A stretch of DNA of 64,000 nucleotides from an uncultured delta proteobacterium. GTDB lineage: Bacteria > Desulfobacterota > SM23-61. A program made the position numbers and the translations under genes. Position 1 is the first letter of the stretch; every line of letters begins with the position of its first letter. Below, one piece after another: positions 32,352 through 50,280 of the stretch. Location: assembly GCA_963760605.1 (NCBI GenBank), contig CAVXFA010000062.1:6174-70173 (forward strand). The letters run 5' to 3'. The notes beneath the pieces were generated by a model that saw nothing but the letters and a program-made list of their open reading frames with translations, made no database searches and was not told the DNA's origin.

Positions 32352-32386
32352 TAAAAAGCATACTCCCGGGGACAACTCTTAGGCAC

Positions 32387-32492
32387 AATATTTTGAGGGA
32401 TTTTCTGATTGACAGGCAATTGACCTGTAACCTATACTGCTTCCATCACTTCATCTTAGGCTCCTTCCATCATGAAGCACGTTTCTATCATT
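32387..32492 (+). promoter_or_regulatory. promoter-leader cassette, copy 1
   Basis: TTGACA at 32409-32414, TTGACC at 32420-32425, TATACT at 32433-32438, then GCTTCCATCA, a ~23 bp insertion and CTTCCATCATGAAGCACGTTTCTATCATTT. It lies upstream of the Nramp-like gene. Confidence 0.7.
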
Positions 32493-32734
32493 TGCGAAAG
32501 AGAATGCAGAAAAGGGAAGTCATCTACAATATCCTGGGACCGGACAAGCTCCGGCAACGATAAGGTGTCATTGAGCGGGAGGTGTGAGGGACGGAAGATA
32601 CAGCCTGTGATAACTTCTTGGATACAGCAGTCTTCATCCCAGGCTTAATGTTGAAGGAAAGAAAGGAGGTGGATGGATCGAGTTCATTATATTCCTTTTG
32701 GAAGGCTGCTTCGGGAGAGTAAAACATAAAGGAG

Positions 32735-34309
32735 GTGCAAGAAATGGCTCAAGATAAGATCAAGGCTCCCCCATTAACCGATGCGATCAGGTCGGCAAAG
32801 CTGAAGGATATGATCAAGTTCTTCGGCCCTGGGGCCATTATGGCCTCCCTGACCATCGGATCCGGGGAGACCTTCTTTGCCTCTCGTGGCGGGGCAATCT
32901 TCGGCTATGCCATCCTGTGGTCCTTCGTCCTGGGGTGTTTCTTCAAGTGGGTCCAGTGCTACACTGCCATGCGCTACCTGACCATCACCGGAGAGCATCC
33001 TATAGACCGCTGGGCCCATTTTCCCGGCCCCAGAGGGTGGTTCCCCTTATTGCTGGGGGCCCTCAGTATCCTGTGCTTTCCTTTCTGGCTTTCTTTCTTG
33101 CCCTCTTTGTTGGGCACCCTTTGCAAATGGATGTTCCATTTCGGGGATCATCTCTGGTGGGGGACCTTCTGGATTCTTTTCTTTGTAACCCTGACACTTT
33201 TAGGGGGATACAATGTCCTGGAGAAGGCGCAGATCGCGATCCTTTCCCTCATGATTGTGGCGGTCCTCTTCTCCGCTGTCTACTTCCAACCCGACTGGGG
33301 TGCGGTCCTTGCAGGATCTTTTATACCCCGGATTCCGGACTATGCCCCCTGGATCTTGCAGAAGTATCCGGATGTCGCCGCCCGACCTCCGTGGGTCGAA
33401 ATTACCGTTTATATCGGGGCCATTGGCGGTGGGACCTACGATTACATTGGCTACGTGGGAATGCTTCGGGAGAAGAATTGGGGCGTGCTCGGCCTTCCGA
33501 ACCTGGCTGAGGTCCAGCAAAGGATCTACGAGCTGAAAGAGAAGGGAGAACGGATTCCCCTCTCCGAAGAGGAGGGGGATGTAAAGACGGCCCTGGCCTG
33601 GACGAAGGCACCAGCCATCGACTCTATCGTTTCCTTCGCCTCGGTCATCATTTTTGCCTCCGGATTCATGATTGGAGGGGCCCGCTTGCTTCACGCGCAA
33701 CAGTTGATCCCCTCCGGATTGAAGCTCTTGGAGTACCAGGCCCAATTCCTCACTCAAATTCACCGCTGGCTGCTTCCGTTATATGACATGGGGGTCTTCC
33801 TGGCGGTTGCGGGCACCGTCTATGGGGCCTACGAGGTCTATACCCGAACCGCGTATGAATGCCTGCGAACCGTCTTCCCCGGACTGCGCAAAATCACCTT
33901 AAAAAAGGTCCGTCCCTGGGTATGCCTCTATGTGGGCGTAGCGGGCCTCTTTCTTATGTGGATGACCCGCCTTTTCCCCCAGGTGAAACTGATCGACCTC
34001 CCCACGCCCGCAGGGATCATTGGGGGGGTCATGACCTGTGGGCTCTGGTGCTTAGCCATGATCTGGACGGATCGGAAATATCTGCCCAAGCCCTATCAAA
34101 TGAGAGGCTGGCTGGTCTTCCTGAACTGGATCGCCGGTATCGGTATGGCATTTATGGGTCTCAAGGCTTGGTGGGACTACGCGGTGGATAAGTTTCACAG
34201 CGGCTGGTGGGGTTATCTCTTCCTGGCTGCCATGGTCGTGCTCTCCATGATCATTACGGCGATCATCAGCAGCTACTACCGGAAAAAGGGAGCGGCAGCG
34301 GCATCCTAA
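32735..34309 (+). CDS. Nramp-like (divalent metal cation transporter family) membrane protein
   Basis: 524 aa polytopic protein. FFGPGAIMASLTIGSGE...GGAIFGYAILW resembles the Nramp GPG.../DPGN-type TM1 region. Confidence 0.5.
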   Translation: MQEMAQDKIKAPPLTDAIRSAKLKDMIKFFGPGAIMASLTIGSGETFFASRGGAIFGYAILWSFVLGCFFKWVQCYTAMRYLTITGEHPIDRWAHFPGPRGWFPLLLGALSILCFPFWLSFLPSLLGTLCKWMFHFGDHLWWGTFWILFFVTLTLLGGYNVLEKAQIAILSLMIVAVLFSAVYFQPDWGAVLAGSFIPRIPDYAPWILQKYPDVAARPPWVEITVYIGAIGGGTYDYIGYVGMLREKNWGVLGLPNLAEVQQRIYELKEKGERIPLSEEEGDVKTALAWTKAPAIDSIVSFASVIIFASGFMIGGARLLHAQQLIPSGLKLLEYQAQFLTQIHRWLLPLYDMGVFLAVAGTVYGAYEVYTRTAYECLRTVFPGLRKITLKKVRPWVCLYVGVAGLFLMWMTRLFPQVKLIDLPTPAGIIGGVMTCGLWCLAMIWTDRKYLPKPYQMRGWLVFLNWIAGIGMAFMGLKAWWDYAVDKFHSGWWGYLFLAAMVVLSMIITAIISSYYRKKGAAAAS

Positions 34310-34337
34310 TTCCAGATGAAGCCTCGTAAATGATCCC

Positions 34338-34398
34338 TAATGTTGCATAAATATTTGCAAGGTGCATGTTCGTCATTCCCGCAAAAGCGGGAATCCAG
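34338..34398. repeat. IR plus hairpin element, copy X (TTGCATAAATATTTGCAAGG ... TCATTCCCGCaaaaGCGGGAATCCAGG)
   Basis: Shares ~60 bp of similarity with 41991-42072. Both copies sit immediately after the stop of a transporter gene. Confidence 0.6.
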
Positions 34399-34627
34399 GC
34401 CCTTCTCAAGACACTGGATGCCTGCCTGCGCGGGCATGACGGAATGTGACTTCCAGTGGAAGATAGGAAAACTCGGGAAATCTTATTTGAAGCCTTTTAG
34501 CAAAAGGGTTTCGCAAAGATTGTTGTCAGTTTTTTGCAACGTTAGGGTGATATGAAGAGAAAGGGGGGCAAGCCTGACGGTCAGTTACAGGGCCAAAGAT
34601 CCAGAGCAGCAAGAAAAGATCGAAGAA

Positions 34628-34873
34628 TTGGCAGGGATTCGGGAGGCCTACCGGCATCAGAGGCGGATCTGGCTGTGGATGATGGGGCTTTCCCTGTTGA
34701 GCTCCGCCATGCTTTTCCGCCGATCCAGCACCTTGGCTATGATCTTTGCCATGCTTTGCCTGGCGCTGGGTCTTTTTCTGGTCTGGAAATACCTGAAATC
34801 CACCCGGGTGATCCACACGATCGATAAAGGCCTTTCCCCCCATCGGGTGGAAGAAAGAAAGGCTCAGAAATAG
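34628..34873 (+). CDS. small hypothetical membrane protein
   Basis: 81 aa with two hydrophobic segments, just upstream of the MFS gene. Weak call. Confidence 0.3.
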   Translation: MAGIREAYRHQRRIWLWMMGLSLLSSAMLFRRSSTLAMIFAMLCLALGLFLVWKYLKSTRVIHTIDKGLSPHRVEERKAQK

Positions 34874-34933
34874 GTCAGAAGAGGGCTTTATGCTGTACTC
34901 GGTAAGAGCGCCACGGAAAGGAGGAATCTTCCA

Positions 34934-36232
34934 ATGACCGCCGAGAGTTCCCGCACAACGCCAGACCCCAGCGCTCCCCGGCCCACCTATATGCGATACC
35001 GGGTGCTGGGCATGCTCTTTTTGCTTTCGATCATTACCTATCTGGACCGTGTCTGTATCGGTGCGGCTGCCCCTCTGATGCGGCGTGACTTGGGCTTGAC
35101 CCCCCTGCAGATGGGGGCAGTCTTCAGCGCTTTCTCTCTGGCCTACGGGATTTTTGAAATCCCCGGCGGATGGCTCGGCGACCGTTTTGGCCCTCGCAGT
35201 ATGCTCATGCGGGTCGTAGTCTGGTGGTCCGCCTTCACCATGCTCACCGGACGGGTCACCAGCTTCTGGAGCCTCTGGATCACCCGGTTCCTTTTCGGTG
35301 CCGGCGAGGCCGGGGCGTATCCGAACAGCTCCTGTGCCATCGCCCAATGGTTTCCGTTCGCAGAGCGGGCCCGGGCTCAAGGCGGTGTCTGGATGGCGAG
35401 CCGGTTGGGCGGTGCCATCGCCCCACTCCTTGTCGTCCCGTTGCAGGCGCAGCTCGGCTGGCGCAACGTGTTTTACATCTTCGGCGCGATCGGAGTGGTT
35501 TGGGCAGCCGGATGGTATTTATGGTTCCGCGATCGTCCGGAGCAGAAACGTGGGGTCAACGCCCTCGAGATTCAATTCATTCGCGAAGGCGCGGCTCCTC
35601 CTCCAGCGCATACCACCACCCCCTGGAGAGTCCTGGTAACCAGCGGGAATTTGTGGGCCGTAATTCTCATGTACTTCACCTATGGCTACGGGGTGAATTT
35701 TTACTTCTTCTGGTTGCCCTCCTACCTGGTGGAAGTTCGAGGCATCGAGAATTTCGCCCCCTATGCTGCATTGCCGTTTCTGCTGGGGGCTTTCGCGAAC
35801 GCCTTCGGAGGTTGGACCAGCGACGCGCTCGTTCGCCGGATCGGCCTGAAGTGGGGCCGCCGGACGGTTGGCCTGGTTGGCCAAGGGAGCAGCGTGCTTT
35901 TCGTCCTGCTCTCCTTCGCCTCCTGGAATCCGGTGTATGCCGTCATTTCACTCGCCATGGGGTTCGCCGCTGCCGACTTCATGCTGCCGAATTGCTGGGC
36001 GGTCTGTCTGGATATCGGCAAACGCCATTCCGGCACGGTAACTGGGTTCATGAACACCGCCGCCCAGATCGGTGGAGCGATTGCCCTCACCGTGATTGGC
36101 TATTTCGCGGGACGCAAACAGTGGAACATTGCGATCCTGACGATGGCCGTAGGACTCATGATCAGTGCATTGCTCTATTTGGTGATTGACGCGAGCAAAC
36201 CCCTCGTTAGGGAAGAGGGCAGTCCAGAGTAG
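34934..36232 (+). CDS. MFS transporter (anion:cation symporter-like)
   Basis: 12-TM-like sequence. Motif LDRVCIGAAAPLMRRDLGL...G.LGDRFGPR. Confidence 0.75.
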   Translation: MTAESSRTTPDPSAPRPTYMRYRVLGMLFLLSIITYLDRVCIGAAAPLMRRDLGLTPLQMGAVFSAFSLAYGIFEIPGGWLGDRFGPRSMLMRVVVWWSAFTMLTGRVTSFWSLWITRFLFGAGEAGAYPNSSCAIAQWFPFAERARAQGGVWMASRLGGAIAPLLVVPLQAQLGWRNVFYIFGAIGVVWAAGWYLWFRDRPEQKRGVNALEIQFIREGAAPPPAHTTTPWRVLVTSGNLWAVILMYFTYGYGVNFYFFWLPSYLVEVRGIENFAPYAALPFLLGAFANAFGGWTSDALVRRIGLKWGRRTVGLVGQGSSVLFVLLSFASWNPVYAVISLAMGFAAADFMLPNCWAVCLDIGKRHSGTVTGFMNTAAQIGGAIALTVIGYFAGRKQWNIAILTMAVGLMISALLYLVIDASKPLVREEGSPE

Positions 36233-36410
36233 CTTCCCTCAGAGGGGAAACCGTCCCCTTCCGGAACGACCTTATGGAAAATTAGGCAAGACTGATCCAG
36301 AAGATCTTCGCGTTCGATCTCCTGCCCTGTCCCGGATGGCCAAAGCAGAGGAGGCTAGTAAGCTTCATCTGAGGACCCTCAGCTTATTAGAAAGACCCTA
36401 GCCCCCACAA

Positions 36411-36490
36411 GATTTTGATCGATTTTTCGATTGACATGCAACTGACTTGTGTCCTATACTCCTTCGGTCATGAAGCATTTGTTTACGGTC
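36411..36490 (+). promoter_or_regulatory. promoter-leader cassette, copy 2
   Basis: TTGACA at 36431-36436, CTGACT at 36442-36447, TATACT at 36455-36460, then CCTTCGGTCATGAAGCATTTG. Upstream of the permease gene at 36866. Confidence 0.65.
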
Positions 36491-36635
36491 ACAACGCGGG
36501 TTGGGGAGCTGAGGCTGTAGAATGATGCTCCGTTGATTTTCTATATGATGCGGGTCATTCTCGAAAAAGCCCTCGCCGTTCATTATGATAAAACTGCAAT
36601 TGGGAGAAAATAGGGGGGCCAGAAGGTCCCCCTAT

Positions 36636-36786
36636 TTATTAGTCAGTCCATAATTATATAGACGCCGAAGACCAAATCCCTCCTTCCCTCCCTTTACAAA
36701 AGGGAGGAATTTCCCCTCTTTGGAAAAGAGGGGTCAGGGGAGATTTTGGAAGAATATGTCTGGTCAATTATGGACTCCTTAGTAAC
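36636..36786. repeat. MITE-like repeat, copy 2
   Basis: Inverted copy of 16842-16980 with a short internal indel. It sits inside the leader between cassette copy 2 and the permease gene. Confidence 0.7.
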
Positions 36787-36865
36787 TTCTCCTCCAAGAG
36801 ATAGCAGCCAAGGCTGGTGTGATTTATTCGGGGAATCAAGAAGAACGAAGATACCCTGAAGCGGA

Positions 36866-37861
36866 GTGGATTGGGTTATGCATGATATAGACACTCTAAT
36901 TTCCTTTGGACCTCATCGCGTTGCGATGGGAGCCTATCATATGTTCCTCCACTTATGGTATTATCTTATAATCGGGATTTTTATCGGGGTAGCATTTAAT
37001 GTCTTCATGCCGCCGGGAATGCTCAATCGGTTAAAGAAAAATGCTAGCGGAACAAGTGGCATCCTCGTCGCCACCCTTTTAGGAATCGTATCTCCCCTCG
37101 GTTCCTATGCCGCAATTCCTACCCTGGTTGCCTTTTTGAGAATAGGGATTCCTTTGGCTACTGTAATGGCCTTTCTGACCGCTTCGCCATTGATCAACCC
37201 TTACATGTTCACCATTACCTTTCAGATCCTTGGGCCCAAGATGGCATTTGCCCGGCTCTTATCGGCGATCTTTATAGGCGTTCTAACGGGCTTGGCCTTC
37301 AGGTATTTAGCGCATTTTCGGCCCTTTCAAAATGGCTCCGCAGCCATAGCAGTCCCGAGTTTTGCCAAAGAAATCACGCTATCTAAAGAAACTGAGCCAC
37401 GGGGCAGCTCTACCGCCTTGGGGACTAGAAGCGAAAAATTCGCGGGGATGGGGAATCCTGACAGGTGGAAGGCTTTCTTTAGGGAATGCTTTAAGATGAC
37501 TGGCTATGCGGGGAAATGGTTCGTAATGTCCATTATCCTGGCCGCAGTGATTGACGTTTACGTTCCAGCCGATTGGATCGTCAAATCCTTAGGGGGCCAC
37601 ACTTACTCTCTTCTGCTGGCTGCAGGCATGGCGATTCCCTTATATGTTTGCGGCGGGGGTGCTGTTCCTTTCATCTGGGAACTCATGCGGTCAGGGATGG
37701 ATCAGGGGGCAGCCTTGACTTTCTTCATTGCCGGGCCCGTGACCCGAGTCGCTCCGATGCTAACCGTGATCTCCTTATTAGGGTACCCCTCGTTTATCGG
37801 CTATTTCTCGATTTCGATGTCCGCTGCACTGATTCTGGGATTCCTCTACCATTTTGTTTGA
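36866..37861 (+). CDS. putative permease (COG0701 / ArsP-like family)
   Basis: 331 aa polytopic protein with the typical two-repeat permease architecture and a hydrophilic central loop. Confidence 0.55.
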   Translation: MDWVMHDIDTLISFGPHRVAMGAYHMFLHLWYYLIIGIFIGVAFNVFMPPGMLNRLKKNASGTSGILVATLLGIVSPLGSYAAIPTLVAFLRIGIPLATVMAFLTASPLINPYMFTITFQILGPKMAFARLLSAIFIGVLTGLAFRYLAHFRPFQNGSAAIAVPSFAKEITLSKETEPRGSSTALGTRSEKFAGMGNPDRWKAFFRECFKMTGYAGKWFVMSIILAAVIDVYVPADWIVKSLGGHTYSLLLAAGMAIPLYVCGGGAVPFIWELMRSGMDQGAALTFFIAGPVTRVAPMLTVISLLGYPSFIGYFSISMSAALILGFLYHFV

Positions 37862-37986
37862 AATGAGGGCGATTGGCAATTTTGGGAAGGAAGGATTTAC
37901 GATAGAAACATTACGATAGAAACATCTTGACCTGGATCAGCCGGTGATATAAACTAAATGCCACTTTTTTCGTTAGAAAATACTCT

Positions 37987-38034
37987 AAATCCCCCCACCC
38001 CCCCCTTTACTAAAGGGGGGCAGGGGGGGATTTT
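37987..38034. repeat. palindromic G6/C6 element, copy B
   Basis: AAATCCCCCCACCCCCCCCTTTACTAAAGGGGGGCAGGGGGGGATTTT, upstream of the small exported protein gene. Confidence 0.8.
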
Positions 38035-38124
38035 CATGGTTCGCGGGTGGCCAAACGGCCATGGGTAGTTTTGCCGAAATGCTCGGGGCTGATGGCTCTT
38101 TCTGCTTTTGAGGGGAGAAGTCGC

Positions 38125-38529
38125 ATGATATCGAAAAATATGTGGCTGAGAGCCTCCTTCCTGGCAGTTGCCTTGTTCATGCTCCTTCCGGCGAGTGGTT
38201 CCTCCCAGCCCCAGATCGCGGTATCCGATTTCACGGTCCTGGACTGGTTCAAAGCGGTCAAACTAACCTGGCAGGCCTCAGCCTCGGAAGGGGGAGAGGG
38301 GATCTTCGAGATTTACCGCAGCGACAAGAAGAACGGTCCTTATACGCTGGTACAAGAGGTTCAACTCGGGGATAAGCAATTCATCGATGTCATCACTAAG
38401 ACCTATTCGTTCTTGGACAAGAGGCTGGAGCCCGGCCATAGTTATTACTATAAACTCGCCTTGAGGGGGACGGATCAGACCTTTGGCCCCTTCCGAGGTC
38501 TCGCCTCCGGGGCCCCCCCTGGAACTTGA
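38125..38529 (+). CDS. small exported FN3-like protein, paralog 1
   Basis: Signal peptide MISKNMWLRASFLAVALFMLLPASG. The mature part (FKAVKLTWQA...YRSDKKNGPY...HSYYYKLALRG) aligns along its full length with the ORF at 47920. Confidence 0.6.
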   Translation: MISKNMWLRASFLAVALFMLLPASGSSQPQIAVSDFTVLDWFKAVKLTWQASASEGGEGIFEIYRSDKKNGPYTLVQEVQLGDKQFIDVITKTYSFLDKRLEPGHSYYYKLALRGTDQTFGPFRGLASGAPPGT

Positions 38530-38712
38530 TGTGCGGGATACGAAACTTCACCGGGGGGGATATCCGGTAACGACCGCAGTCTCTCAGGGAGAAAGGGGGT
38601 GATGGGGAAGAAACCTTCCAGGTAGTGGACTCGAACCATGTAGTTGATTCGAGGTGTATGGTTTTTCTTTGACAACGCGGAGAACGATATTCAGAAAGGG
38701 GGAAGAACGATC

Positions 38713-39840: not shown

Positions 39841-40049
39841 GCCGAGCCCGAAGGGTTTGACACTCCGTAAGAAAGGCAAAGAGGGGGGCGGCAAACAATG
39901 CAGCTCCCCTTTCTTTTTTCCCCTAAGCCGAAGGATTGAAGAGCCGGGCTCTATGTAATGCCGCTTGACGTAAACCAAAACTTGTGACTAAAATTAAAAA
40001 AATTTGTGCCTCCATGGGGTGTAGGCAGAATATAATTGTATTCATGATG

Positions 40050-40738: not shown

Positions 40739-40752
40739 GTTTTTGGAGGATT

Positions 40753-41986: not shown

Positions 41987-41990
41987 CCGA

Positions 41991-42072
41991 AACGTTGCAT
42001 GAATATTCGCAAGGAGAAGATTTGTCATTCCCGCGAAGCTTGTCCCCGCGAAAGCGGGGAGCGGGAATCCAG
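41991..42072. repeat. IR plus hairpin element, copy Y
   Basis: AACGTTGCATGAATATTCGCAAGG..TGTCATTCCCGCGAAGCTTGTCCCCGCGAAAGCGGGGAGCGGGAATCCAG, with nested hairpins. It parallels 34338-34398. Confidence 0.6.
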
Positions 42073-42126
42073 TAAGGATCCAAAGCCCTACTAACAGATG
42101 GCCCAGAAAGGATTTAGGAAGAAGGT

Positions 42127-42702: not shown

Positions 42703-43033
42703 TAGCCATTGCGACAGGGACAATTATTGGGCTGCTTTTTCCGTAATCTGAAATCCGCAATCATAAATGGGCTGCCCCGGGCAGGGGAGATCCAGCCTTT
42801 GGCGGGGCAAAATCGGCCACGAATACCCTTTTCCTAAACTGCAGGCTCCATCCCAAAATAGGATAGCCGGGACAGAAAAATATTCGAATTAACCTCCTTG
42901 GCCCCCTCATCTTTTGAAAACCGCCATTTTGATAGGCTACTGTTGCAAAAATTACGTGGTAGTTTAAGAGGCGACAAGACTAAACTAAAAAGCTAGAGTG
43001 CGACTTCGGATTTAAGGCTCCCGGATCCTTTCC

Positions 43034-43945: not shown

Positions 43946-43971
43946 TTCCTGCTTCTTTGAATGGAAATACT

Positions 43972-44050
43972 TAGAAAATCTTTCGTGATTGACATGAAAT
44001 TGAGTTGTGTTCTATACTGCTTGCATAATGAAGCAGGTTCTTATCATTCT
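43972..44050 (+). promoter_or_regulatory. promoter-leader cassette, copy 3
   Basis: TTGACA at 43989-43994, TTGAGT at 44000-44005, TATACT at 44013-44018, then GCTTGCATAATGAAGCAGGTTCTTATCATTC. Upstream of the heme-PD40 gene. It abuts the truncated ATPase fragment on the other strand. Confidence 0.65.
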
Positions 44051-44117
44051 CCTATCTATTGAGACTGCGGTCGCTTAGCATTTTCGCCCAAACCACCTTT
44101 TTCCCTGGAGGTCTGTC

Positions 44118-46181
44118 ATGAAAAGTCACCACCATATCTTTGCAGTTGCCTTTTTTCTGGGCTTCCTGGCGCTTGTCCCGATGGAATCTGGAGCCTACTT
44201 AGATCAAATCAAGGGCAAGAAGGGACCTACGGGGGACGTGGTCCTCCAGGTGGGAGCCATGCCCGTCCCCCTTCCCTCGCGGCGTCAAATCATCGATGCA
44301 GATAAGGGGGCTTTCTGCCTGCAATGCCATCGGATGCCGTATCCCACGGCCCCGCAAAAGCCAGCAAAGCCGGGCGAAAAGGCATTGTCTTCGGTTCAAG
44401 TTACCCCTCCGGGAGGATGGCGGCTCCTGACACCCCTCACCGGCTTCAACGCGATAGCCGGCGGATGGAGCCCGGATGGAAAGCACATCGTCTATTCGAT
44501 CAATCTCTTCGAGAAGGATTGGGATATCTGGGTCATGGATGCGGATGGCAAGAACCGGGCTCCCCTTATTTCGGGCTCGGCGATCAAAATGGCGCCGGAT
44601 TGGAGCCCGGACGGCAAATTCATCGTCTTTCAATCGAATCGCTCGGGAAACTTCGATATATGGATAATGGAAATAGCCACCAAGAAGCTGACCCAACTGA
44701 CCAACGAGCCAAGTGAAGAGACTATGCCCAGATGGTCTCCCGATGGGAAGAAGATCGTCTTCCAGTCTAATCGGTCTGGCAACGAGGATATTTGGACGGT
44801 GGATATCGCAACCGGCCAATGGACCCAACTAACCAACAGCCCGGCCAAGGATGAGAATCCTGTCTTCAGTCCCAACGGGCAGCAGATCGCCTTCGTCTCA
44901 GACCGAAACGGAAAGAAAGATATTTTTGTCATGAACGCTGATGGAAGTGATCAGAGAGCTCTCACCTCAGAACCCGGGGATAATATCGCTCCTCATTGGA
45001 GCCCGGATGGAAAGAAGATCATCTTTTCCCGCAAGGGTGCAGATAACAACCTGCATCTCTGGGTGATGAATGCCGATGGATCGGAGCAGATCCGCCTGAC
45101 GACCCATCCCACCTCGCAGATCGGTCCCTACTGGAGCCCGGACGGAAAGTGGGTCATCTTCACTTCCAACATCCGCGGCAACTGGGATGTCCTCCTGATG
45201 CAGGTGGATGCCTCCATGGTCGATCCATCTCGCAGCCCGCTCAAGCGCTTGACCGATAGCGAGGCCCGGGAGGTGGGCGCCATCTGGAGCCCGGATGGGA
45301 AGAAGATCGCCTACAACTCGGATGCGAATGGACATTGGAGCATTTGGACGATGGGTCCCGATGGTAAGAACAAGCGCCAACTGACCGGAGACGATGAGGA
45401 CGCCGGCTGGCCTTCCTGGAGCCCGGATGGGAAGAAGATCCTTTACTGGGGCTGCCGGGATGGCAACCAGGATGTCTGGGTGATGGATGCGGATGGATCG
45501 AACAAGAGGCGGCTGACCGATCATCCGGCATTGGATGGGGACGCGCAGTGGAGCCCGGACGGGAAGAGGATCGTCTTCGTCTCCGAGCGCACCGGCAAGG
45601 GTGATATCTATGTCATGGATGCCGATGGGTCAAACCAGAAGCGCCTGACCTTCACCGATGCCCTCGATTGGACGCCTTATTGGAGCCCGGATGGGAAGAA
45701 GATCGCCTATGTTTCCAATCAGACCGGGAAATGGGAGATCTGGGCATTGGACGTGGAGACCCTGGAGGGCAAGCACCTCACGCCTGATTCCGGTGGCAAC
45801 TTTGTGCCGCGGTGGAGGCCGCCGGATGGGAGTCAGATATGCTATGTGGGATGGCGAGGGGGTGAGTACACCATCAAGGGCAGTTTTGATGTGGTGGTCA
45901 TGAACGTGGACGGCAGCGGAAAGAGGGAACTGGCCCCGTCCCCGTTCGACGAGCGATCATCGCGTTGGAGCCCGGATGGTAGCAGGATCGTGTTTTGGTC
46001 CTGGCGAACCGGGAGCCCGCAGATCTATGTGATGAATGCGGACGGAAGTGGCTTAAGACAGCTCACTGACAATCTGGCCTACAATGTCTTCCCCTCCTGG
46101 AGCCCGGATGGAAAGAGGATTGCCTTCGAGTCTGACCGCATGGGCAACTTCGACATCTGGGTGATGGAAGTGCCGGAATAG
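44118..46181 (+). CDS. periplasmic TolB-like protein with 13 PD40 beta-propeller repeats and an N-terminal CxxCH heme-binding motif
   Basis: Signal peptide, then GAFCLQCHRM (CxxCH), then 13 repeats of the ..WSPDGK.I.F.. type. Confidence 0.7.
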   Translation: MKSHHHIFAVAFFLGFLALVPMESGAYLDQIKGKKGPTGDVVLQVGAMPVPLPSRRQIIDADKGAFCLQCHRMPYPTAPQKPAKPGEKALSSVQVTPPGGWRLLTPLTGFNAIAGGWSPDGKHIVYSINLFEKDWDIWVMDADGKNRAPLISGSAIKMAPDWSPDGKFIVFQSNRSGNFDIWIMEIATKKLTQLTNEPSEETMPRWSPDGKKIVFQSNRSGNEDIWTVDIATGQWTQLTNSPAKDENPVFSPNGQQIAFVSDRNGKKDIFVMNADGSDQRALTSEPGDNIAPHWSPDGKKIIFSRKGADNNLHLWVMNADGSEQIRLTTHPTSQIGPYWSPDGKWVIFTSNIRGNWDVLLMQVDASMVDPSRSPLKRLTDSEAREVGAIWSPDGKKIAYNSDANGHWSIWTMGPDGKNKRQLTGDDEDAGWPSWSPDGKKILYWGCRDGNQDVWVMDADGSNKRRLTDHPALDGDAQWSPDGKRIVFVSERTGKGDIYVMDADGSNQKRLTFTDALDWTPYWSPDGKKIAYVSNQTGKWEIWALDVETLEGKHLTPDSGGNFVPRWRPPDGSQICYVGWRGGEYTIKGSFDVVVMNVDGSGKRELAPSPFDERSSRWSPDGSRIVFWSWRTGSPQIYVMNADGSGLRQLTDNLAYNVFPSWSPDGKRIAFESDRMGNFDIWVMEVPE

Positions 46182-46220
46182 GTTCGCAAAAGAAGAGAGC
46201 GTCCTGAAGGCTTAGGCGGC

Positions 46221-46340
46221 AATATTTGAGCGATTTTTTAAATTGACATGCAATTGACTTGTGTCCTATACTGCCTCCGTCGTCACTTTTTTTTCATTCC
46301 CTATGCCGCTTCCATCATGAAGCACGTTCCTATCATTTAC
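46221..46340 (+). promoter_or_regulatory. promoter-leader cassette, copy 4
   Basis: TTGACA at 46243-46248, TTGACT at 46254-46259, TATACT at 46267-46272, a 34 bp insertion, then CTTCCATCATGAAGCACGTTCCTATCATTT. A perfect hairpin, CTTCTCCCCCA gtt TGGGGGAGAAG, follows at 46366-46390. Confidence 0.7.
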
Positions 46341-46609
46341 ATAGAAAATACCCTAAATACCCCGGCTTCTCCCCCAGTTTGGGGGAGAAGGAAAGGGTAA
46401 GGGGAAAGAGGGATTTTTATCATTCGTGGGCGCCAAGCCGTCAGGAATGATGAGTTATGAAATGGAGTTTCCAAAAGGTACCAATACGTTGCCTCCAGGG
46501 GGGGTTTTAGGCCCTCTTGGAGGCTTTTGTATTTGGGCCTACGATAATGTAAGATTAGGCGGAAGACAAGGAAATCTGGTTCGCAACTTAAGGAAAAGGA
46601 GGAAGTAGC

Positions 46610-47772
46610 ATGAAGAAGTGGCACATTGTTGCTGTTTGTTTGTTGGGACTCTTGTTGCTGGCATGGTCTCGAGCCGCTGTGGCCGGACCTAAGGTGGCCA
46701 TTGTCCAAGGGAATGAAAAGATATTGAAAGGTTCAGTGATCGCCCCCGAGCGATGCTGGGCTATCTGCCCAAGCATCCGGAAGGTGGACGCGAGGACCTT
46801 GGCTGGACCTTAGAGTATACGCCAGAGAGCATTCAGGAAGTTGAGAGGATGGTCCGTAAGGCCGTTGATTTGGCGGGTGGATGGCCGGTTAAAAGCGGGG
46901 ACACGGTATTTATCAAGTTCAACGCCAATAACGATCAATGGTATCTGTTATCCACTGGTCACGGGAATGCGGAGGACTTCGCTGCCACGAACACGGATGG
47001 CCGGATCGCTAGAGCAGTCGCGCTCTTGTGCAAGGAGTCGGGGGCCAGGAGGATCATTATCGGCGAAGCCCCTGGACTCGCCAACGCTATTCCATCCATG
47101 AGAGTGTGGGGAGCCGAAATGGCGGTTAAGGAGGCGGGAGCTGAGCTCGTTGACCTTGACAATGTGCCTTACAGATGGGTCAAAGCCCCGCATGCCCTGG
47201 CAGCTGCGGAGTACGCTATACCTGCAGTAGTGCTGGATGCGGATGTAGTGATCAGCGTGGCAAACCTGAAGACCCATGGCTTTGCGGGCACTACAGGGGT
47301 CTTAAAGAACATCGGTATCGGCGTTCCTCCCAACAAGGTCTATGGTGCTCCTAAGACAGGATTGCGTCACGATGTGCTGCGAAGACCCAAAGTGATGTAT
47401 GCGATATCGTGAAGGCTAAGTATCAACATCTTAGGCGCCATCTACGGTGGGGAAGGAGCTGGGCCTACGATGTGCAAGGGTATTTACCAGGGCATAATTC
47501 TTGCCGGTAAAGATCCAGTGGCCATAGATTACGTAGGGAGTGCCTGCATGGGTGAGAATCCAGAACGTTTCGGCTACCTGCGAATAGGCCAGCGAGATCG
47601 GTCTGGGCACATACAAAGACATCCAGGTGGTTGGCAAGAGTATCGGGGAAGTCATGAAGCAATATGCGCCACTTCCAGGCCATGGACCCGGCGCTTTTGG
47701 AGAAGTTTGGGGCTGGCCGTAAGATTCGCCTTGGATGAGGGGGAGGACGTAGGTTCTCCCTCCCTCATGTAA
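46610..47772 (+). pseudogene. exported DUF362-domain protein, paralog 2, broken by at least two frameshifts
   Basis: Signal peptide ORF 46610..46813. The core AVDLAGGWPVKSGDTVFIKFN is in ORF 46753..47412. The C-terminal part is in ORF 47470..47772 (AGKDPVAIDYVGSACMG). It aligns with the 38713..39840 protein across all three frames. Confidence 0.6.
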
Positions 47773-47832
47773 GATGAGGGGGCGCCATAGAGTATGACAC
47801 GCCCTCTCACCGTAGCATGCCTGAACTTTTCT

Positions 47833-47863
47833 GCCCTCCCCATTACACGGGGAGGGCTTTTTA
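47833..47863 (+). terminator. rho-independent terminator (GCCCTCCCC attacac GGGGAGGGC TTTTT)
   Basis: Perfect 9 bp GC stem followed by a T5 run, after the DUF362 paralog. Confidence 0.7.
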
Positions 47864-47919
47864 ATTGCAGACCATAGATCGTAAGAGGCTAAGAGGTCCT
47901 TTGTATCCTTGAAGGGAGG

Positions 47920-48336
47920 ATGGATTTGATGTCAAATTATCTGAAGACCCCACTCTTGGTGCTGGCTCTGGTGGTTGCTTTAGTGGCCTTCCTTCCCGGG
48001 GTGGGATTTTCTCAAGAGAAAGTCTCGATATACGATTTCTACGTTTTCAATTGGCTGAAAGCCGTCAAGCTGAATTGGAAGGCTGCCGCTCCCGAGGGCG
48101 CAGAGGGAACCCTCCAGGTTTACCGGAGCGATAAGGAAAACGGTCCCTATTCGCTTGTGCAAGAGATAAGACTGGGCGACCGGGGATTCATCGATGTCAT
48201 CACAGGGACCTATGTCTTCTTCGACAGGAAGGTGGAGGCCGACCACAGCTATTACTATAAGCTGGGGCTGCGGGGGTCCAGTCAAAGTTTGGGTCCCTTA
48301 AGAGGACTCGCCCGCAGCGGCCCTCCTGGGACTTGA
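47920..48336 (+). CDS. small exported FN3-like protein, paralog 2
   Basis: About 60% identical to the 38125..38529 product, including the conserved C-terminal tail GP(F/L)RGLA..PPGT. Confidence 0.6.
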   Translation: MDLMSNYLKTPLLVLALVVALVAFLPGVGFSQEKVSIYDFYVFNWLKAVKLNWKAAAPEGAEGTLQVYRSDKENGPYSLVQEIRLGDRGFIDVITGTYVFFDRKVEADHSYYYKLGLRGSSQSLGPLRGLARSGPPGT

Positions 48337-48353
48337 AAGACCGTCACATTATG

Positions 48354-48436
48354 AATATTTTGAGCGGTTTTTTGATTGACATGCAATTGACTTGTGCCCT
48401 ATACTGCTTCCATCATGAAGGAAATTTCTATCCTTA
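48354..48436 (+). promoter_or_regulatory. promoter-leader cassette, copy 5 (most compact copy)
   Basis: AATATTTTGAGCGGTTTTTTGA, TTGACA at 48376-48381, TTGACT at 48388-48393, TATACT at 48400-48405, then GCTTCCATCATGAAGGAAATTTCTATCC. It sits 20 nt ahead of the cupin gene start. Confidence 0.7.
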
Positions 48437-48456
48437 GCGCCAAGGAGGGAACAGAA

Positions 48457-48936
48457 ATGAAAAAGGTAAGCCTATTGGCCATGGCCGCCCTGGTCATCTT
48501 TACTATGATCTGGGCCATATCATCGGTGCAAGCCAAAGAGCCCTACGCAACAGCCGAGGAATATAGCAAGTATATCGTCAACAAGGGTTCTGTTCCTTGG
48601 ACCGAGCTGGTGCCTGGGGCCAACACCCATCTGGTCTGGGGAGATCGGGTCATGGTGAGCTTACTTACCATGGCTCCCTGGACAACCTTTCCCAGGCATA
48701 CTCATGAAGCAGAGCAGATCATGATCGTCCTGGACGGTTATATGGACGAGATGATCGAGGGAAAGCTATATCGGATCAAGAAGGGAGATGTAATCATATT
48801 GCGCTCCAATGTCCCGCACGGCGGCTACCTTTATGATGTCCCCTGTGTGGTGATCGACATCTTTGCCCCGGTTCGCCCCGACTACATCGAGAAGACCAAG
48901 AAGCAGGGCACCTATGATGTGATCATTCCGAAGTAA
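48457..48936 (+). CDS. exported cupin-domain protein
   Basis: RBS AAGGAGG at 48442-48448, then ATG. Signal peptide MKKVSLLAMAALVIF. Cupin motifs PRHTHEAEQIMIVLDG and NVPHGG. Track ORF 48394 uses an upstream GTG that lies inside the cassette. Confidence 0.65.
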   Translation: MKKVSLLAMAALVIFTMIWAISSVQAKEPYATAEEYSKYIVNKGSVPWTELVPGANTHLVWGDRVMVSLLTMAPWTTFPRHTHEAEQIMIVLDGYMDEMIEGKLYRIKKGDVIILRSNVPHGGYLYDVPCVVIDIFAPVRPDYIEKTKKQGTYDVIIPK

Positions 48937-48982
48937 AGGGCGAGACTCCTCCACCCGGCTCACTAATAGTTTCTGCGTAAAT

Positions 48983-49024
48983 AAAAATCCCCATTTCTAT
49001 GGAAAGAAATGGGGATTTTTATTC
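48983..49024. terminator. bidirectional rho-independent terminator (AAAAATCCCCATTTC tatggaaa GAAATGGGGATTTTTATT)
   Basis: 12 bp perfect stem flanked by A and T runs, between the convergent cupin and MFS genes. Confidence 0.8.
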
Positions 49025-49083
49025 CCATACGGATCTAAGATCAAAAACGGATGTATTCGGTTCTTGGGCCTAAAGAGTTCAAG

Positions 49084-50280
49084 CTATCTCCTTTTAGCGC
49101 TGCTCAGAAAAAGCCAGAGAAGCAGAGCCGCTAAGAGGGCCAGGGTGGCGCCAAAACTGAAGGCCGCTTTTGAACCGACTTTCTCCCAGAGCAAGCCCAT
49201 CAAAAGGCTTGCCGGCAGGGTGCTAATACCGATGGAGAAGTGATACAATCCGTAAGCCGTGCCCCGCAAATGCGGCTCGACTAAATCGGCCACCAGAGCT
49301 CGCTCTCCACCCTCCGTCAAACCGTAGAAGAGACCATAAATTGCAAAAAGGGTCCAAACCATCCCGGAAGTTTCAGCCCAGCCGAAAGCCCAGTAAACAG
49401 CGCTGTAGAGCAGCCAGCCGGCGATGATCACACCCCTTCTGCCCAGACGGTCGGAAAGGATTCCACCCGGAGTGGCGGATAAGGACTTGACCAGATGGAG
49501 AACCATCCAGAGGATGGGGATGAGAGAAACGGGGATGCCGGCCTCTTTGGCTTTTAGAAGCAAGAAGGCATCACTGGAATTTCCCAGGCTGAAGAGGATG
49601 AGGATAAAAAGAAAGACCTTAAATCGGCTGTCAAAGGGTCGAAGGGTCAACTGGATTCTCGCCGCGGCGACCCGGGTTGGGGTTGATTGTCTCTCGCTCA
49701 CCCCCCGGATGAGAATGATCAGAGCAACCAACCCGGGTAGGTAAGCTGCCCAGAAGATAAGGCGGTATTGTTGAGTGATGAAGGTGAGAAAGAAAAACGC
49801 AATCAACGGCCCCATTACGGCCCCGGCATGGTCCATGGCCCGCTGAAAGCCGAAGGCTTTTCCATGTTCCCCCCCGAGACAGGAGTCTGCAATAAGCGCG
49901 TCCCGGGGGGAAGTTCGAATCCCTTTTCCCACCCGGTCAAGAAAACGGATAAGCAGCACGTGCCACCCCGCCGTAGCCGCAGCCACTAAAGGACGAGTAA
50001 AGGTGGAAAGCGTGTAGCCGAAAACGACCAGGGATTTTCTCTTTCCTATGCGGTCAGAGACCCAGCCGGAGAAGAGCTTGAGCAAAGAAGCGGTGGCCTC
50101 GGCAACGCCTTCTACCAATCCAACAAAGGTCGTTCCCATTCCCAAGACGGAAGTTAAAAAGATGGGAAGCAGGGGATAGATCATTTCACTACTTACGTCA
50201 GTGAAAAGACTGACCAACCCCAAGGAATAAATATTTCGGCTGAAACCGAAAATTTTCTTGTCAGAATTTGTTTGAGGCAT
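49084..50280 (-). CDS. MFS transporter
   Basis: 398 aa. 12-TM-like, with MFS motifs. Confidence 0.75.
   Translation of the reverse strand: MPQTNSDKKIFGFSRNIYSLGLVSLFTDVSSEMIYPLLPIFLTSVLGMGTTFVGLVEGVAEATASLLKLFSGWVSDRIGKRKSLVVFGYTLSTFTRPLVAAATAGWHVLLIRFLDRVGKGIRTSPRDALIADSCLGGEHGKAFGFQRAMDHAGAVMGPLIAFFFLTFITQQYRLIFWAAYLPGLVALIILIRGVSERQSTPTRVAAARIQLTLRPFDSRFKVFLFILILFSLGNSSDAFLLLKAKEAGIPVSLIPILWMVLHLVKSLSATPGGILSDRLGRRGVIIAGWLLYSAVYWAFGWAETSGMVWTLFAIYGLFYGLTEGGERALVADLVEPHLRGTAYGLYHFSIGISTLPASLLMGLLWEKVGSKAAFSFGATLALLAALLLWLFLSSAKRR

What the first reader, a model, noticed from the sequence alone, without database searches (positions are those of the whole stretch)
32387..50280. 18 kb island of exported and membrane proteins with internal paralogy, beside a T2SS: a candidate secretion-substrate / uptake island
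Between the HDAC-like gene and the gsp operon almost every product is a transporter or a signal-peptide protein. These are the Nramp-like transporter, two MFS transporters, the ArsP-like permease, the MacB-type ABC module with DUF3299, two small FN3-like exported proteins, two DUF362 exported proteins, the heme-PD40 propeller protein and the exported cupin. The island also concentrates all the repeat families noticed in this window, and carries one decayed paralog and one chimeric gene. It has none of the conserved housekeeping synteny of the left third. Its position directly upstream of a complete gspEFGHIJKLM-C-D cluster makes the exported proteins natural candidates for T2SS cargo.
Basis: partly seen in the sequence, partly recalled or inferred. 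Interest (0 to 1): 0.6.

Follow-up and report, generated by a model that had tools for sequence, protein, structure and literature searches.

The report
Flexible envelope-protein island with repeated promoter
A 16.7 kb stretch coding almost only for membrane transporters and exported proteins is a real lineage-specific insertion next to a type II secretion operon, built from five units that each carry a copy of the same strong promoter, but nothing ties it functionally to the secretion system.

Summary
Its own synteny test is positive. In seven related genomes the HDAC-like gene is followed directly by the opposite-strand MFS gene and gspEFG. Window 32352-49083 is therefore an insertion, and the second MFS (49084-50280) is backbone. 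The insertion is also found, with different cassettes, in two closer relatives. G+C and GC3 match the backbone. There is no tRNA, integrase, flanking repeat, or plasmid or phage match.

New here: five same-strand units each start with a copy of a roughly 90-nt module (TTGACA-N18-TATACT plus a conserved leader). Both hexamers are invariant in nine copies from two species. The recurrent core is an ArsP_1 permease, a stand-alone exported FN3 domain, an exported LarA-fold DUF362 protein and a cupin. This core occurs elsewhere without gsp genes nearby.

The MFS1 gene and the Zrg-like MacB ABC block are window-lineage additions. The block is decaying: a nonsense codon sits in Walker A, and the "chimera" is an internally deleted, inverted second operon copy. 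DUF362b carries four frameshifts.

My best reading is a co-regulated, cassette-swapping uptake and periplasmic-processing island, possibly metal-related. T2SS cargo status is unsupported and cannot be tested here. Interest is moderate to low.

The parts
32352..49083 (.). Lineage-specific insertion (flexible island) between the convergent HDAC-like gene and the MFS2 gene
   Evidence: It is absent from L002-L008, where HDAC is followed by MFS2(-)-gspE-gspF-gspG. Both junctions are confirmed on independent contigs L082, L083, L091 and L092.
32387..32493 (+). Promoter/leader module copy P1, upstream of the Nramp-like gene
   Evidence: Repeat families D2/D4. TTGACA-18-TATACT scores 11/12. Conserved in L082 and L091.
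32735..34309 (+). Divergent Nramp-family transporter
   Evidence: Pfam Nramp. NCBIfam Nramp_1 scores 87 bits against a cut-off of 50. Closest solved structure is EleNRMT 7qia. The canonical DPGN motif is replaced by GSGE.
34679..34873 (+). Conserved 64-aa small membrane ORF
   Evidence: Conserved with the called gene at L091 7440-7634.
34934..36232 (+). MFS1, an anion:cation symporter-type MFS transporter and a window-lineage cassette
   Evidence: MFS_1 and TIGR00893 matches. Absent in L091 and present in L082. It has the highest GC (0.60) in the window.
36409..36491 (+). Promoter/leader module copy P2, upstream of ArsP_1, FN3-A and DUF362a
   Evidence: Orthologous copy at L091 7859.
36866..37861 (+). 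ArsP_1 (PF03773) permease
   Evidence: Pfam E = 7e-41. The SO_0444 and SaoE models score below their cut-offs. No CSC motif, by direct reading of the sequence.
38125..38529 (+). Small exported stand-alone FN3 domain A
   Evidence: Family alignment. Predicted 7-strand Ig/FN3 sandwich. The profile hits FN3 repeats of giant proteins.
38713..39840 (+). Exported DUF362a, LarA-like fold
   Evidence: PF04015. Signal peptide MRKAIFLAGLFLLVGATLAFA|GP. Model pLDDT is 87.6, and the top 10 PDB matches are all LarA-family racemases.
39912..44060 (.). Window-specific inserted block: Zrg-like MacB ABC operon, inverted remnant of a second copy, and promoter copy P3
   Evidence: In L091, DUF362a is followed directly by the PD40 gene. 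Window 39911 joins to 44061.
40052..40738 (+). ABC ATPase with an in-frame TAG (40172-40174) replacing the Ser of Walker A GPSGSGKST; probable pseudogene
   Evidence: 95% identical to the intact 228-aa ATPase of L098.
40736..41986 (+). FtsX/MacB-type permease
   Evidence: Pfam FtsX and MacB_PCD. 94% identical to L098.
42127..42702 (+). DUF3299 protein (ZrgE/PA4066-like)
   Evidence: PF11736. ZrgE is annotated as DUF3299 in PMC9817125.
43034..43945 (-). Chimeric ORF: 63 codons of an ABC ATPase 5' end fused to an exported HEAT-repeat protein. It is the internally deleted remnant of a second, divergent operon copy.
   Evidence: ABC_tran and HEAT_2. The canonical order ABC-FtsX-DUF3299-HEAT is seen in L098. 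The HEAT part is only 60.6% identical to L098, against 88-95% for module 1.
40076..40264 (.). Left arm of the 189-nt inverted repeat (partner 43760-43948, 83% complementary)
43967..44049 (+). Promoter/leader module copy P3, upstream of the PD40 gene
   Evidence: It lies inside the window-specific block.
44118..46181 (+). Exported PD40 (TolB-like) double-propeller protein with an N-terminal CXXCH
   Evidence: 11 PD40 repeats. CLQCH read directly from the translation. 88% identical ortholog in L091.
46221..46338 (+). Promoter/leader module copy P4
   Evidence: Orthologous copy at L088 3523. Absent at this position in sibling L083.
46491..46524 (+). Strong terminator-like hairpin between P4 and the DUF362b start
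   Evidence: 13-bp stem with a T tail. Conserved in L083 and L088.
46609..47772 (+). DUF362b pseudogene
   Evidence: Four single-base indels relative to the intact 370-aa orthologs in L083 and L088.
47920..48336 (+). Small exported stand-alone FN3 domain B
48354..48436 (+). Promoter/leader module copy P5, upstream of the cupin gene
   Evidence: Orthologous copies in L083 and at L088 5454.
48457..48936 (+). Exported cupin (probable start at MKKVSLL)
   Evidence: Cupin_2. Signal peptide. Conserved next to FN3/DUF362 in L084, L085 and L088.
49084..50280 (-). MFS2. This is conserved backbone, not part of the island.
   Evidence: Present next to HDAC and gspE in L002, L003 and L005-L008.

Best explanation
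Window 32352-49083 is a lineage-specific flexible genomic region. It was inserted between the convergent 3' ends of the HDAC-like gene and a backbone MFS gene, and this spot happens to lie just upstream of the T2SS operon.

The region has five same-strand transcription units. Each is headed by a paralogous copy of a roughly 90-nt module. The module is an A/T-rich upstream stretch, a near-consensus sigma-70 promoter (TTGACA-N18-TATACT), and a conserved leader containing CTTC-N6-GAAG. The units are therefore most likely expressed as one regulon (inferred).

The stable core is a recurrent module: an ArsP_1-type permease, a stand-alone exported FN3 domain, an exported LarA-fold DUF362 protein and an exported cupin, plus a heme-propeller protein. 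Around this core, transporter and enzyme cassettes are gained, lost and degraded.
- Nramp-like transporter, ACS-type MFS and Zrg-like MacB ABC operon in the window.
- Isochorismatase, SSF, TRAP, an exported cyclase and others in relatives.

In the window, the ABC block and DUF362b are already pseudogenised.

The likeliest function is capture, periplasmic handling and import of a scarce small solute. A divalent metal or metal chelate is the leading candidate (inferred, weak).

The position beside gsp is positional, not functional.
For: Shown:
- The region is absent in seven relatives, where HDAC, MFS2 and gspEFG are adjacent.
- It is present with different content in a 96% sibling (L082, L083) and an 87% relative (L091, L092, L088).
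- The window has exactly five promoter-module copies, all inside the island and all on the + strand. None are expected by chance. They are the five best sigma-70 matches in the region.
- The -35 and -10 hexamers are invariant in nine copies from two species. Spacer identity is 0.86 and flank identity is 0.66-0.69.
- FN3 and DUF362 are adjacent in every context retrieved.
- DUF362 occurs with ArsP_1, MFS and an analogous small beta-sandwich protein in a distant lineage.
- Folds are supported.
- Decay is documented.
- The canonical ABC-FtsX-DUF3299-HEAT operon is seen in L098.

Metal link:
- The Nramp-family model passes its curated cut-off.
- The ArsP_1 protein's nearest named families are the Cu/Zn efflux family SO_0444 and SaoE (bioRxiv 10.1101/2022.07.06.499078).
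- A DUF3299 protein with a split MacB ABC transporter matches the Zur-regulated ZrgBCE and PA4064-4066 systems (PMC9817125; PMC11481552).
- The cupin has the His/Glu metal motif, by direct reading.
- NosL lies next to the DUF362a ortholog in L093, and NiFe hydrogenase plus larBCE lie next to the L094 and L097 clusters.
Against: - No transcription data exist. The regulator is unknown. The leader palindrome is imperfectly kept among copies.
- P4 fires into a strong terminator-like hairpin before DUF362b.
- Pooled codon usage differs modestly from the backbone (JSD 0.016 against at most 0.009 for random backbone subsets). This may only reflect membrane-protein amino-acid composition.
- The metal reading is weak. 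The Nramp-like protein lacks the canonical DPGN site and has GSGE instead. The ArsP_1 protein lacks the CSC motif and falls below both family cut-offs.
- The Zrg-like block is a decaying, window-specific add-on, and no ZrgA/PA4063-type binding protein or Zur box was seen.
- Relatives carry organic-acid-type transporters (TRAP, SSF, CitMHS) and enzymes instead.
- Only about 10 kb of flank was visible in the related loci.
Confidence: 0.6

Rival explanations
1. T2SS cargo island. The Sec-exported FN3, DUF362, cupin and PD40 proteins are folded in the periplasm and then secreted through the adjacent GspD secretin.
For: All four have Sec-type signal peptides. A complete gsp cluster starts 1.7 kb downstream. 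From general knowledge, some T2SS substrates are encoded next to their gsp operons. DUF362 domains fused to CBM9 and dockerin in other organisms indicate extracellular roles (PMC5742341).
Against: - gsp is conserved in seven relatives without the island.
- MFS2 on the opposite strand and a terminator separate the island from gspE.
- In L088, 8 kb of cytoplasmic enzyme and TRAP genes intervene.
- The FN3/DUF362 modules in L084, L089, L093 and L094-L097 have no T2SS gene within 10 kb.
- In the distant lineage the analogous small proteins are lipoproteins, which are retained in the cell.
- The genes are co-located with inner-membrane importers, which fits periplasmic function.
Confidence: 0.12
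2. Same architecture, but the substrate is organic rather than metallic. The island would be a scavenging and periplasmic-processing regulon for carboxylates or aromatic acids. DUF362 would act as a LarA-like 2-hydroxy-acid isomerase, alongside cupin and heme-propeller enzymes and secondary carboxylate transporters.
For: - MFS1 best matches the D-galactonate/ACS family and aromatic-acid symporter models.
- Relatives carry TRAP DctPQM, SSF, CitMHS, 2-hydroxyacid dehydrogenase, aminotransferase, PTE, isochorismatase and cyclase genes in or next to the module.
- DUF362 has the LarA racemase fold and belongs to the same Pfam clan.
- The Nramp-like protein lacks the metal site.
Against: A Sec-exported LarA-like protein could not take a cytoplasmically made NPN cofactor with it. 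No lar genes are in the window. Several of the transporter families present are metal-linked. The accompanying enzymes differ from genome to genome.
Confidence: 0.3
3. A classical mobile element, such as an integrative island, a transposon, or an array assembled by a promoter-carrying MITE.
For: Distribution is patchy and the content is cassette-like. A 189-nt inverted repeat brackets the ABC block. Two MITE-like elements are active in this lineage. Extended similarity between the promoter copies implies recent duplication.
Against: - No integrase or transposase domain was found among the island products scanned.
- No tRNA.
- No flanking direct repeat longer than 8 nt.
- No plasmid, phage or viral-contig match.
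- G+C is native.
- The inverted repeat is explained as a deleted second operon copy.
- The promoter module has no obvious terminal inverted repeats and was found only in this locus.
Confidence: 0.08
4. Assembly artefact: a chimeric MAG contig that joins unrelated sequence.
For: The source is evidently a metagenome-assembled contig.
Against: Both junctions and the internal joins are reproduced on independent contigs from other samples: L082, L083, L091 (JGI), L092 (Logan) and L088.
Confidence: 0.02

Closest known systems
Flexible genomic islands and integration hot spots of bacterial pangenomes (strain-variable accessory regions at a fixed backbone position)
   Same: The backbone junction (HDAC | MFS2) is fixed. 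Relatives lack the region, and even 96% and 87% relatives differ in content. Gene decay is present and the cargo is accessory transport and envelope functions.
   Different: There is no tRNA, integrase, flanking repeat or compositional signal. Each unit carries a copy of one promoter module, which is not a usual island feature.
ZrgABCDE (Vibrio) and PA4063-PA4066 (P. aeruginosa): Zur-regulated split MacB-type ABC systems with a DUF3299 protein
   Same: A separate ABC ATPase, an FtsX/MacB_PCD permease and a DUF3299 protein occur in one operon.
   Different: No ZrgA/PA4063-type or ZrgD protein is present. A HEAT-repeat exported protein is the fourth gene instead. No Zur box was seen. In the window the ATPase has a nonsense codon. 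The transport direction in the known systems is itself disputed: import in Vibrio papers, export in PMC11481552.
[quoted passage not shown]
   Same: The DUF362a model's ten best PDB matches are all LarA-family. DUF362 and DUF2088 share Pfam clan CL0471. larBCE genes sit next to a DUF362 cluster in one distant lineage.
   Different: The protein carries a Sec signal peptide, so it would be extracytoplasmic. TM-scores are only 0.3-0.4 and sequence identity about 12%. Cofactor-binding residues were not verified, and no lar genes are in the window.
Nramp/MntH divalent metal transporters and Nramp-related Mg transporters (EleNRMT, 7qia)
   Same: The Nramp_1 NCBIfam model passes its cut-off. EleNRMT is the best solved homolog.
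   Different: The TM1 metal-site motif DPGN (DAGG in EleNRMT) is GSGE here. The protein is about 100 residues longer.
T2SS substrate genes linked to gsp operons (for example pulA with pul, or sslE with gsp; from general knowledge)
   Same: Sec-exported proteins are encoded beside a complete gsp cluster.
   Different: The linkage is not conserved, the genes are not co-oriented or co-transcribed with gsp, and the same modules occur elsewhere without gsp.

Membership tests
Classical (mobile) genomic island | Sporadic presence at a conserved backbone site | tested here: met
   Absent in L002-L008. Present in L082/L083 and in L091/L088.
Classical (mobile) genomic island | Integrase, transposase or other mobility genes | tested here: not met
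   Pfam and NCBIfam scans of the main island ORFs show none. Small ORFs were not exhaustively scanned.
Classical (mobile) genomic island | tRNA or tmRNA insertion site and flanking direct repeats | tested here: not met
   No tRNA in the window. The longest k-mer shared between the two junctions is 8 nt.
Classical (mobile) genomic island | Deviant base composition or codon usage | tested here: inconclusive
   GC is 0.534 against 0.529 and GC3 is 0.608 against 0.613 (p = 0.54 and 0.86). Pooled codon JSD is 0.016 against at most 0.009 for random backbone subsets, possibly an amino-acid composition effect.
T2SS substrate locus | N-terminal Sec or Tat signal peptide on the candidate cargo | tested here: met
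   A heuristic script plus direct reading gives Sec-type signal peptides on FN3-A/B, DUF362a/b, cupin, PD40, DUF3299 and HEAT. No twin-arginine motif was seen.
T2SS substrate locus | Conserved linkage or co-transcription with gsp genes | tested here: not met
   gsp occurs without the island in seven relatives. The modules occur without gsp in L084, L089, L093 and L094-L097. MFS2 on the opposite strand lies in between.
T2SS substrate locus | GspD- or GspE-dependent appearance outside the cell | not testable with these tools
   Needs secretome proteomics.
Zrg/PA4063-4066-type MacB ABC system | Split ABC ATPase, FtsX/MacB_PCD permease and DUF3299 protein | tested here: met
Zrg/PA4063-4066-type MacB ABC system | ZrgA (DUF2796) or PA4063-type periplasmic metal-binding partner | tested here: not met
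   No such Pfam hit in the island. The fourth gene of the canonical operon is a HEAT_2 protein.
Zrg/PA4063-4066-type MacB ABC system | Intact ATPase | tested here: not met
   TAG replaces the Ser codon in Walker A at 40172-40174.
Zrg/PA4063-4066-type MacB ABC system | Zur-box regulation | not tested
   No Zur-like palindrome was noticed upstream of 40052. No organism-specific Zur motif is available.
Nramp family | Curated family model score | tested here: met
   NF037982 scores 87.1 bits against a cut-off of 50.
Nramp family | TM1 DPGN metal-binding motif | tested here: not met
   The aligned position reads GSGE, against DPGN in a canonical Nramp chain and DAGG in EleNRMT.
SO_0444 / SaoE metal efflux permeases | Family model cut-off and CSC motif | tested here: not met
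   139 bits against 300 and 85 bits against 325. There is no CSC, only VCGGG in the second half (translation). Motif definition is from bioRxiv 10.1101/2022.07.06.499078.
LarA superfamily | LarA-like two-domain fold | tested here: met
   The top 10 Foldseek PDB matches are all LarA-family, probability 0.97-1.0, but TM is only 0.3-0.4.
LarA superfamily | NPN-tethering Lys, Ni-binding His and catalytic His residues | not tested
   Invariant K224, H226 and K236 exist in the DUF362a family, but no residue-level superposition was available.
LarA superfamily | larB, larC and larE cofactor genes in the genome or neighbourhood | tested here: inconclusive
   None in the window. Present beside the DUF362 clusters in L094 and L097 only. 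The whole genome was not available.
Fibronectin type III domain | 7-strand beta sandwich and homology to FN3 repeats | tested here: met
   Model pLDDT is 84.7. Ig/FN3 matches include tenascin FN3 2cui. The profile hits multi-repeat giant proteins with up to 20 stretches.
Integron-like cassette array | IntI integrase and attC sites | tested here: not met
   There is no integrase. The repeated element is a 5' promoter module, not a 3' attC.

The most novel reading that the evidence does not exclude
The exported LarA-fold DUF362 protein, its obligate stand-alone FN3 partner, the exported cupin and the ArsP_1 permease may form a previously undescribed extracytoplasmic system. It could be the first periplasmic use of the LarA scaffold, for example in nickel or other metal handling, or in cofactor-independent isomerisation of a substrate before uptake. 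It would be expressed from a dedicated, self-duplicating promoter/leader module that lets new cassettes be wired into the regulon.
Probability: 0.15. Interest if true: 0.7.

Novelty: new member of a known kind. Interest (0 to 1): 0.35.

Why it matters
If the reading is right, the locus shows how an accessory envelope regulon grows. Copies of one strong promoter/leader module accompany cassette gain. For example, P3 restores a promoter for the PD40 gene after the ABC block split the ancestral operon.

It also flags a conserved and entirely uncharacterised gene partnership: an exported DUF362 with the LarA fold, a stand-alone FN3 domain, and often an ArsP_1 permease or a cupin. This partnership occurs in anaerobic Thermodesulfobacteriota-like bacteria, and DUF362 has no assigned function.

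It does not open a route to T2SS substrates. The adjacency that motivated the finding is incidental on present evidence.

Tried and rejected
- **Riboswitch or known RNA in the long leaders.** Rfam gave no gathering-score hit in the window and only a chance tmRNA fragment at E = 0.19.
- **tRNA or att site.** None found.
- **Plasmid, phage or viral origin.** No match.
- **189-nt inverted repeat as an invertible, phase-variable switch that would restore the ATPase.** Rejected. The arms are only 83% identical. The HEAT part is 60.6% identical to the L098 operon, while module 1 is 88-95% identical. A deleted second, divergent operon copy fits better.
- **OmpR/PhoB-type direct-repeat operator (TTGAC-N6-TTGAC) read by the response regulator at 62241-62933.** Weakened. 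The second TTGAC is not conserved among the nine copies, and only the two hexamers are invariant.
- **Invariant C-terminal ...PPGT of the small proteins as a sorting or modification signal.** More distant stand-alone relatives end in LPST, LPTT or QPAT, and some continue beyond that point. This is most simply the natural end of an FN3 domain. The analogous CarboxypepD_reg-like proteins that end in GGT are not homologous.
- **Exact look-ups of window proteins (DUF3299 and P0083).** They found no record, so the source contig itself could not be fetched.
- **Metagenome scan with the promoter pattern.** It found only the sibling strain's two contigs and one chance hit. Genome-wide distribution of the module is therefore unknown.

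Full report
**Observation**

After the HDAC-like gene (31092-32351) come the following genes:
- a divergent Nramp-family transporter;
- an ACS-type MFS transporter (MFS1);
- an ArsP_1 permease;
- a small exported protein (A);
- an exported DUF362 protein (a);
- an ABC ATPase, an FtsX/MacB_PCD permease and a DUF3299 protein;
- an opposite-strand ORF that joins an ABC N-terminus to HEAT repeats;
- an exported protein with 11 PD40 repeats and one CXXCH;
- a broken DUF362 paralog (b);
- a second small exported protein (B);
- an exported cupin;
- an opposite-strand MFS transporter (MFS2).

A gspE-F-G-H-I-J-K-L...D cluster follows. A crude script finds polytopic membrane segments or a Sec-type signal peptide in 12 of 13 island products. 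In the left backbone the figure is about 7 of 31.

**Is it an island?**

A scan of species-representative genomes with the HDAC protein returned MAGs labelled Syntrophaceae, Deltaproteobacteria or Thermodesulfobacteriota, at 67-80% identity.

In the seven MAGs whose contigs extend downstream (L002-L008), the order is PIG-L...MGMT-nitroreductase-HDAC, then MFS2 on the opposite strand (missing in L004), then gspE-gspF-gspG. None of the genes from the Nramp-like gene to the cupin is present. So window 32352-49083 is an insertion relative to the wider clade, and MFS2 belongs to the backbone.

The insertion is not an assembly artefact and is not unique to this genome.
- A sibling strain (95-98% nt) carries both junctions on separate contigs, L082 and L083.
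- A relative at about 87% nt carries it on L091/L092 and L088.

Composition gives no signal. GC is 0.534 against 0.529 and GC3 is 0.608 against 0.613. Pooled codon usage deviates only modestly. There is no tRNA. No integrase or transposase domain appears in the scanned products. No junction repeat exceeds 8 nt. There is no match to plasmids, phages or viral contigs. The empty sites in relatives are non-conserved, low-complexity intergenic DNA.

**Cassette turnover**

The three island-bearing lineages differ by gene-sized blocks.

In L091 the order is HDAC, isochorismatase, P1, Nramp-like, P2, ArsP_1, FN3-A, DUF362a, PD40. It has no MFS1 and no ABC block. Window 39911 joins directly to 44061.

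L088 continues as PD40 end, SSF transporter, two ORFs, P4, intact DUF362b, FN3-B, P5, cupin, FAD protein, aminotransferase, TRAP DctPQM with a phosphotriesterase-family protein, then MFS2.

The sibling L083 has a third DUF362 paralog in place of PD40-P4. It also has an extra exported cyclase between DUF362b and FN3-B.

The window's own additions are MFS1, which has the highest G+C in the window, and the 4.1 kb block at 39912-44060.

**The ABC block and the chimera**

A contig with a 94% identical permease (L098) shows the canonical operon: ABC (228 aa), FtsX (416 aa), DUF3299 (189 aa) and a HEAT protein (267 aa), all on one strand.

The window's module 1 is 88% nt identical to that operon, but it lacks HEAT. 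Its ATPase has TAG in place of the Ser codon of Walker A GPSGSGKST.

The opposite-strand chimera carries 63 ATPase codons (82.5% nt to L098) fused to a HEAT protein that is only 60.6% identical to L098. On its own strand the order ABC-5' then HEAT matches the canonical order with the middle removed. It is therefore best read as an internally deleted second, divergent operon copy. The 189-nt inverted repeat (83%) is what remains of that duplication.

DUF362b carries four single-base indels relative to two intact orthologs. Backbone genes align to relatives as single uninterrupted matches, so these lesions are probably real decay rather than sequencing noise.

**The repeated promoter module**

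This is the main new observation. The direct-repeat families D2 and D4 are five copies of one module of roughly 90 nt. The copies sit at 32387, 36409, 43967, 46221 and 48354. All are on the + strand, all are inside the island, and each lies upstream of a transcription unit. Mismatch searches find exactly these five against an expectation of 0.00 and 0.94.

Each copy contains TTGACA-18 nt-TATACT. These are the five best sigma-70-like sites in the region. An A/T-rich stretch precedes each, and a leader with CTTCCATCATGAAGCA follows, sometimes in two or three partial copies.

I compared the five paralogs with four orthologous copies in L091 and L088. The two hexamers are invariant. Spacer identity is 0.86 and flank identity is 0.66-0.69. 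This is the pattern expected for selection on promoter function.

P3 lies inside the window-specific block. It would restore a promoter for the PD40 gene, which in L091 simply follows DUF362a.

Caveats:
- There is no expression evidence.
- The leader palindrome is imperfectly maintained.
- P4 is followed by a strong terminator-like hairpin before DUF362b.
- The regulator is unknown.

**The conserved core**

The small proteins belong to a narrow family, with only 26 close homologs among 5.8 billion clusters. Their predicted structure is a 7-strand Ig/FN3 sandwich. A family profile hits FN3 repeats of giant multi-domain proteins. They are therefore stand-alone exported FN3 domains.

Every retrieved homolog lies next to a DUF362 gene, in either order, and often next to a cupin.

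The DUF362a model (pLDDT 87.6) matches only LarA-family nickel-pincer racemases among its top ten PDB hits. This agrees with the shared Pfam clan (PMC11770544).

In a distant lineage (DUF362a 52% identical; L094-L097), two or three DUF362 genes sit with an MFS transporter, an ArsP_1 permease, a porin-like protein and non-homologous small beta-sandwich lipoproteins. That cluster lies beside a NiFe hydrogenase and larC/larB/larE-like genes.

None of these other contexts has a T2SS gene within 10 kb.

**Function**

The following steps are shown:
- the insertion;
- cassette turnover;
- gene decay;
- promoter-module paralogy and conservation;
- the fold assignments;
- the recurrent gene partnership.

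The following steps are inferred:
- co-regulation of the five units;
- a periplasmic capture or processing role coupled to import.

A metal or metal-chelate substrate is my leading guess, for these reasons:
- the Nramp-family model passes its curated cut-off;
- the ArsP_1 protein's nearest named families are metal efflux permeases;
- a DUF3299 protein with a split MacB ABC transporter matches Zur-regulated systems;
- the cupin has the His/Glu metal motif;
- NosL, hydrogenase or Lar genes are neighbours in other contexts.

Several points weigh against it:
- the Nramp-like protein has GSGE where DPGN should be;
- the ArsP_1 protein fails both family cut-offs and lacks the CSC motif;
- the Zrg-like block is a decaying add-on;
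- relatives carry carboxylate-type transporters and assorted enzymes instead.

An organic-acid scavenging reading is nearly as good.

**T2SS cargo**

Nothing beyond adjacency supports it, and the adjacency results from where the insertion landed. I rate it unlikely for the set as a whole. It cannot be excluded for individual proteins without proteomics.

**Verdict**

This is a new member of a known kind, a flexible accessory region. It has two features worth a note: a self-duplicating promoter module, and an uncharacterised exported DUF362(LarA-fold)-FN3 partnership. Interest is 0.35.

Noticed in passing
window 27302-27392, 37973-38065, 55152-55232; partial copy 46331-46363: A MITE/REP-like hairpin element (core AAAATCCCCCC...GGGGGGATTT) has three full copies in both orientations at 81-86% identity. 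One overlaps the annotated upstream start of the FN3-A ORF. One lies between gspI and the likely gspJ start.
   Followed up: partly
window 16842-16968 and 36650-36787; L083 8911-9002: A second element of about 140 nt has a 72-nt stretch that is 100% identical in inverted orientation 20 kb apart. The sibling strain has a further copy between the cupin gene and MFS2 that the window lacks, so the element has been mobile recently.
   Followed up: partly
window 34679-34873 (+): A conserved 64-aa small membrane protein ORF (MMGLSLLSSAMLF...) lies downstream of the Nramp-like gene. It is also called as a gene in L091 7440-7634.
   Followed up: partly
window 46491-46524 (+): A strong terminator-like hairpin (13-bp stem, T tail) sits between promoter copy P4 and the DUF362b start. 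It is conserved in L083 and L088. P4 may therefore make only a transcript of about 250 nt unless there is read-through.
   Followed up: partly
window 32473-, 36471-, 44029-, 46318-, 48416- (the ATG inside CATCATGAAGCA): Each promoter copy is followed by a short frame beginning MKH(V/L)(S/P)II. At P5 it is in frame with the cupin ORF. It could be a relic of a duplicated 5' gene end or a leader peptide.
   Followed up: no
window 62241-62933 (+): An OmpR-type response regulator (Response_reg + Trans_reg_C) lies immediately downstream of gspD. Its partner kinase is not visible before the window ends.
   Followed up: no
L094 1-17545; L096; L097: A distant lineage has a cluster of TatD-like protein, MFS, porin-like 445-aa protein, two or three DUF362 genes, ArsP_1 and CarboxypepD_reg-like lipoproteins. 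It lies next to TatA, HycI, NiFe hydrogenase and divergent larC/larB/larE-like genes. This is a possible nickel or NPN link for DUF362.
   Followed up: partly
alignment A3 (window 38125-38529, 47920-48336 and homologs); P0222-P0342: All close family members of the small FN3 proteins end exactly at ...G(A/G)PPGT. More distant stand-alone relatives end in LPST, LPTT or QPAT. This is probably just the FN3 domain end, but the resemblance to a pre-cleaved LPXT motif was not explored.
   Followed up: partly
window 48982-49019: A bidirectional terminator-like hairpin (AAAAATCCCCATTTC...GAAATGGGGATTTTT) lies between the convergent cupin and MFS2 genes and marks the right island junction.
   Followed up: no
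L005 11368-12523 and 14591-15802: In relative L005, MFS2 and gspF align in several frame-shifted pieces. This is probably long-read assembly error in that MAG. It is a reminder that frameshifts in MAGs need orthogonal support. The window's backbone genes show no such breaks.
   Followed up: no
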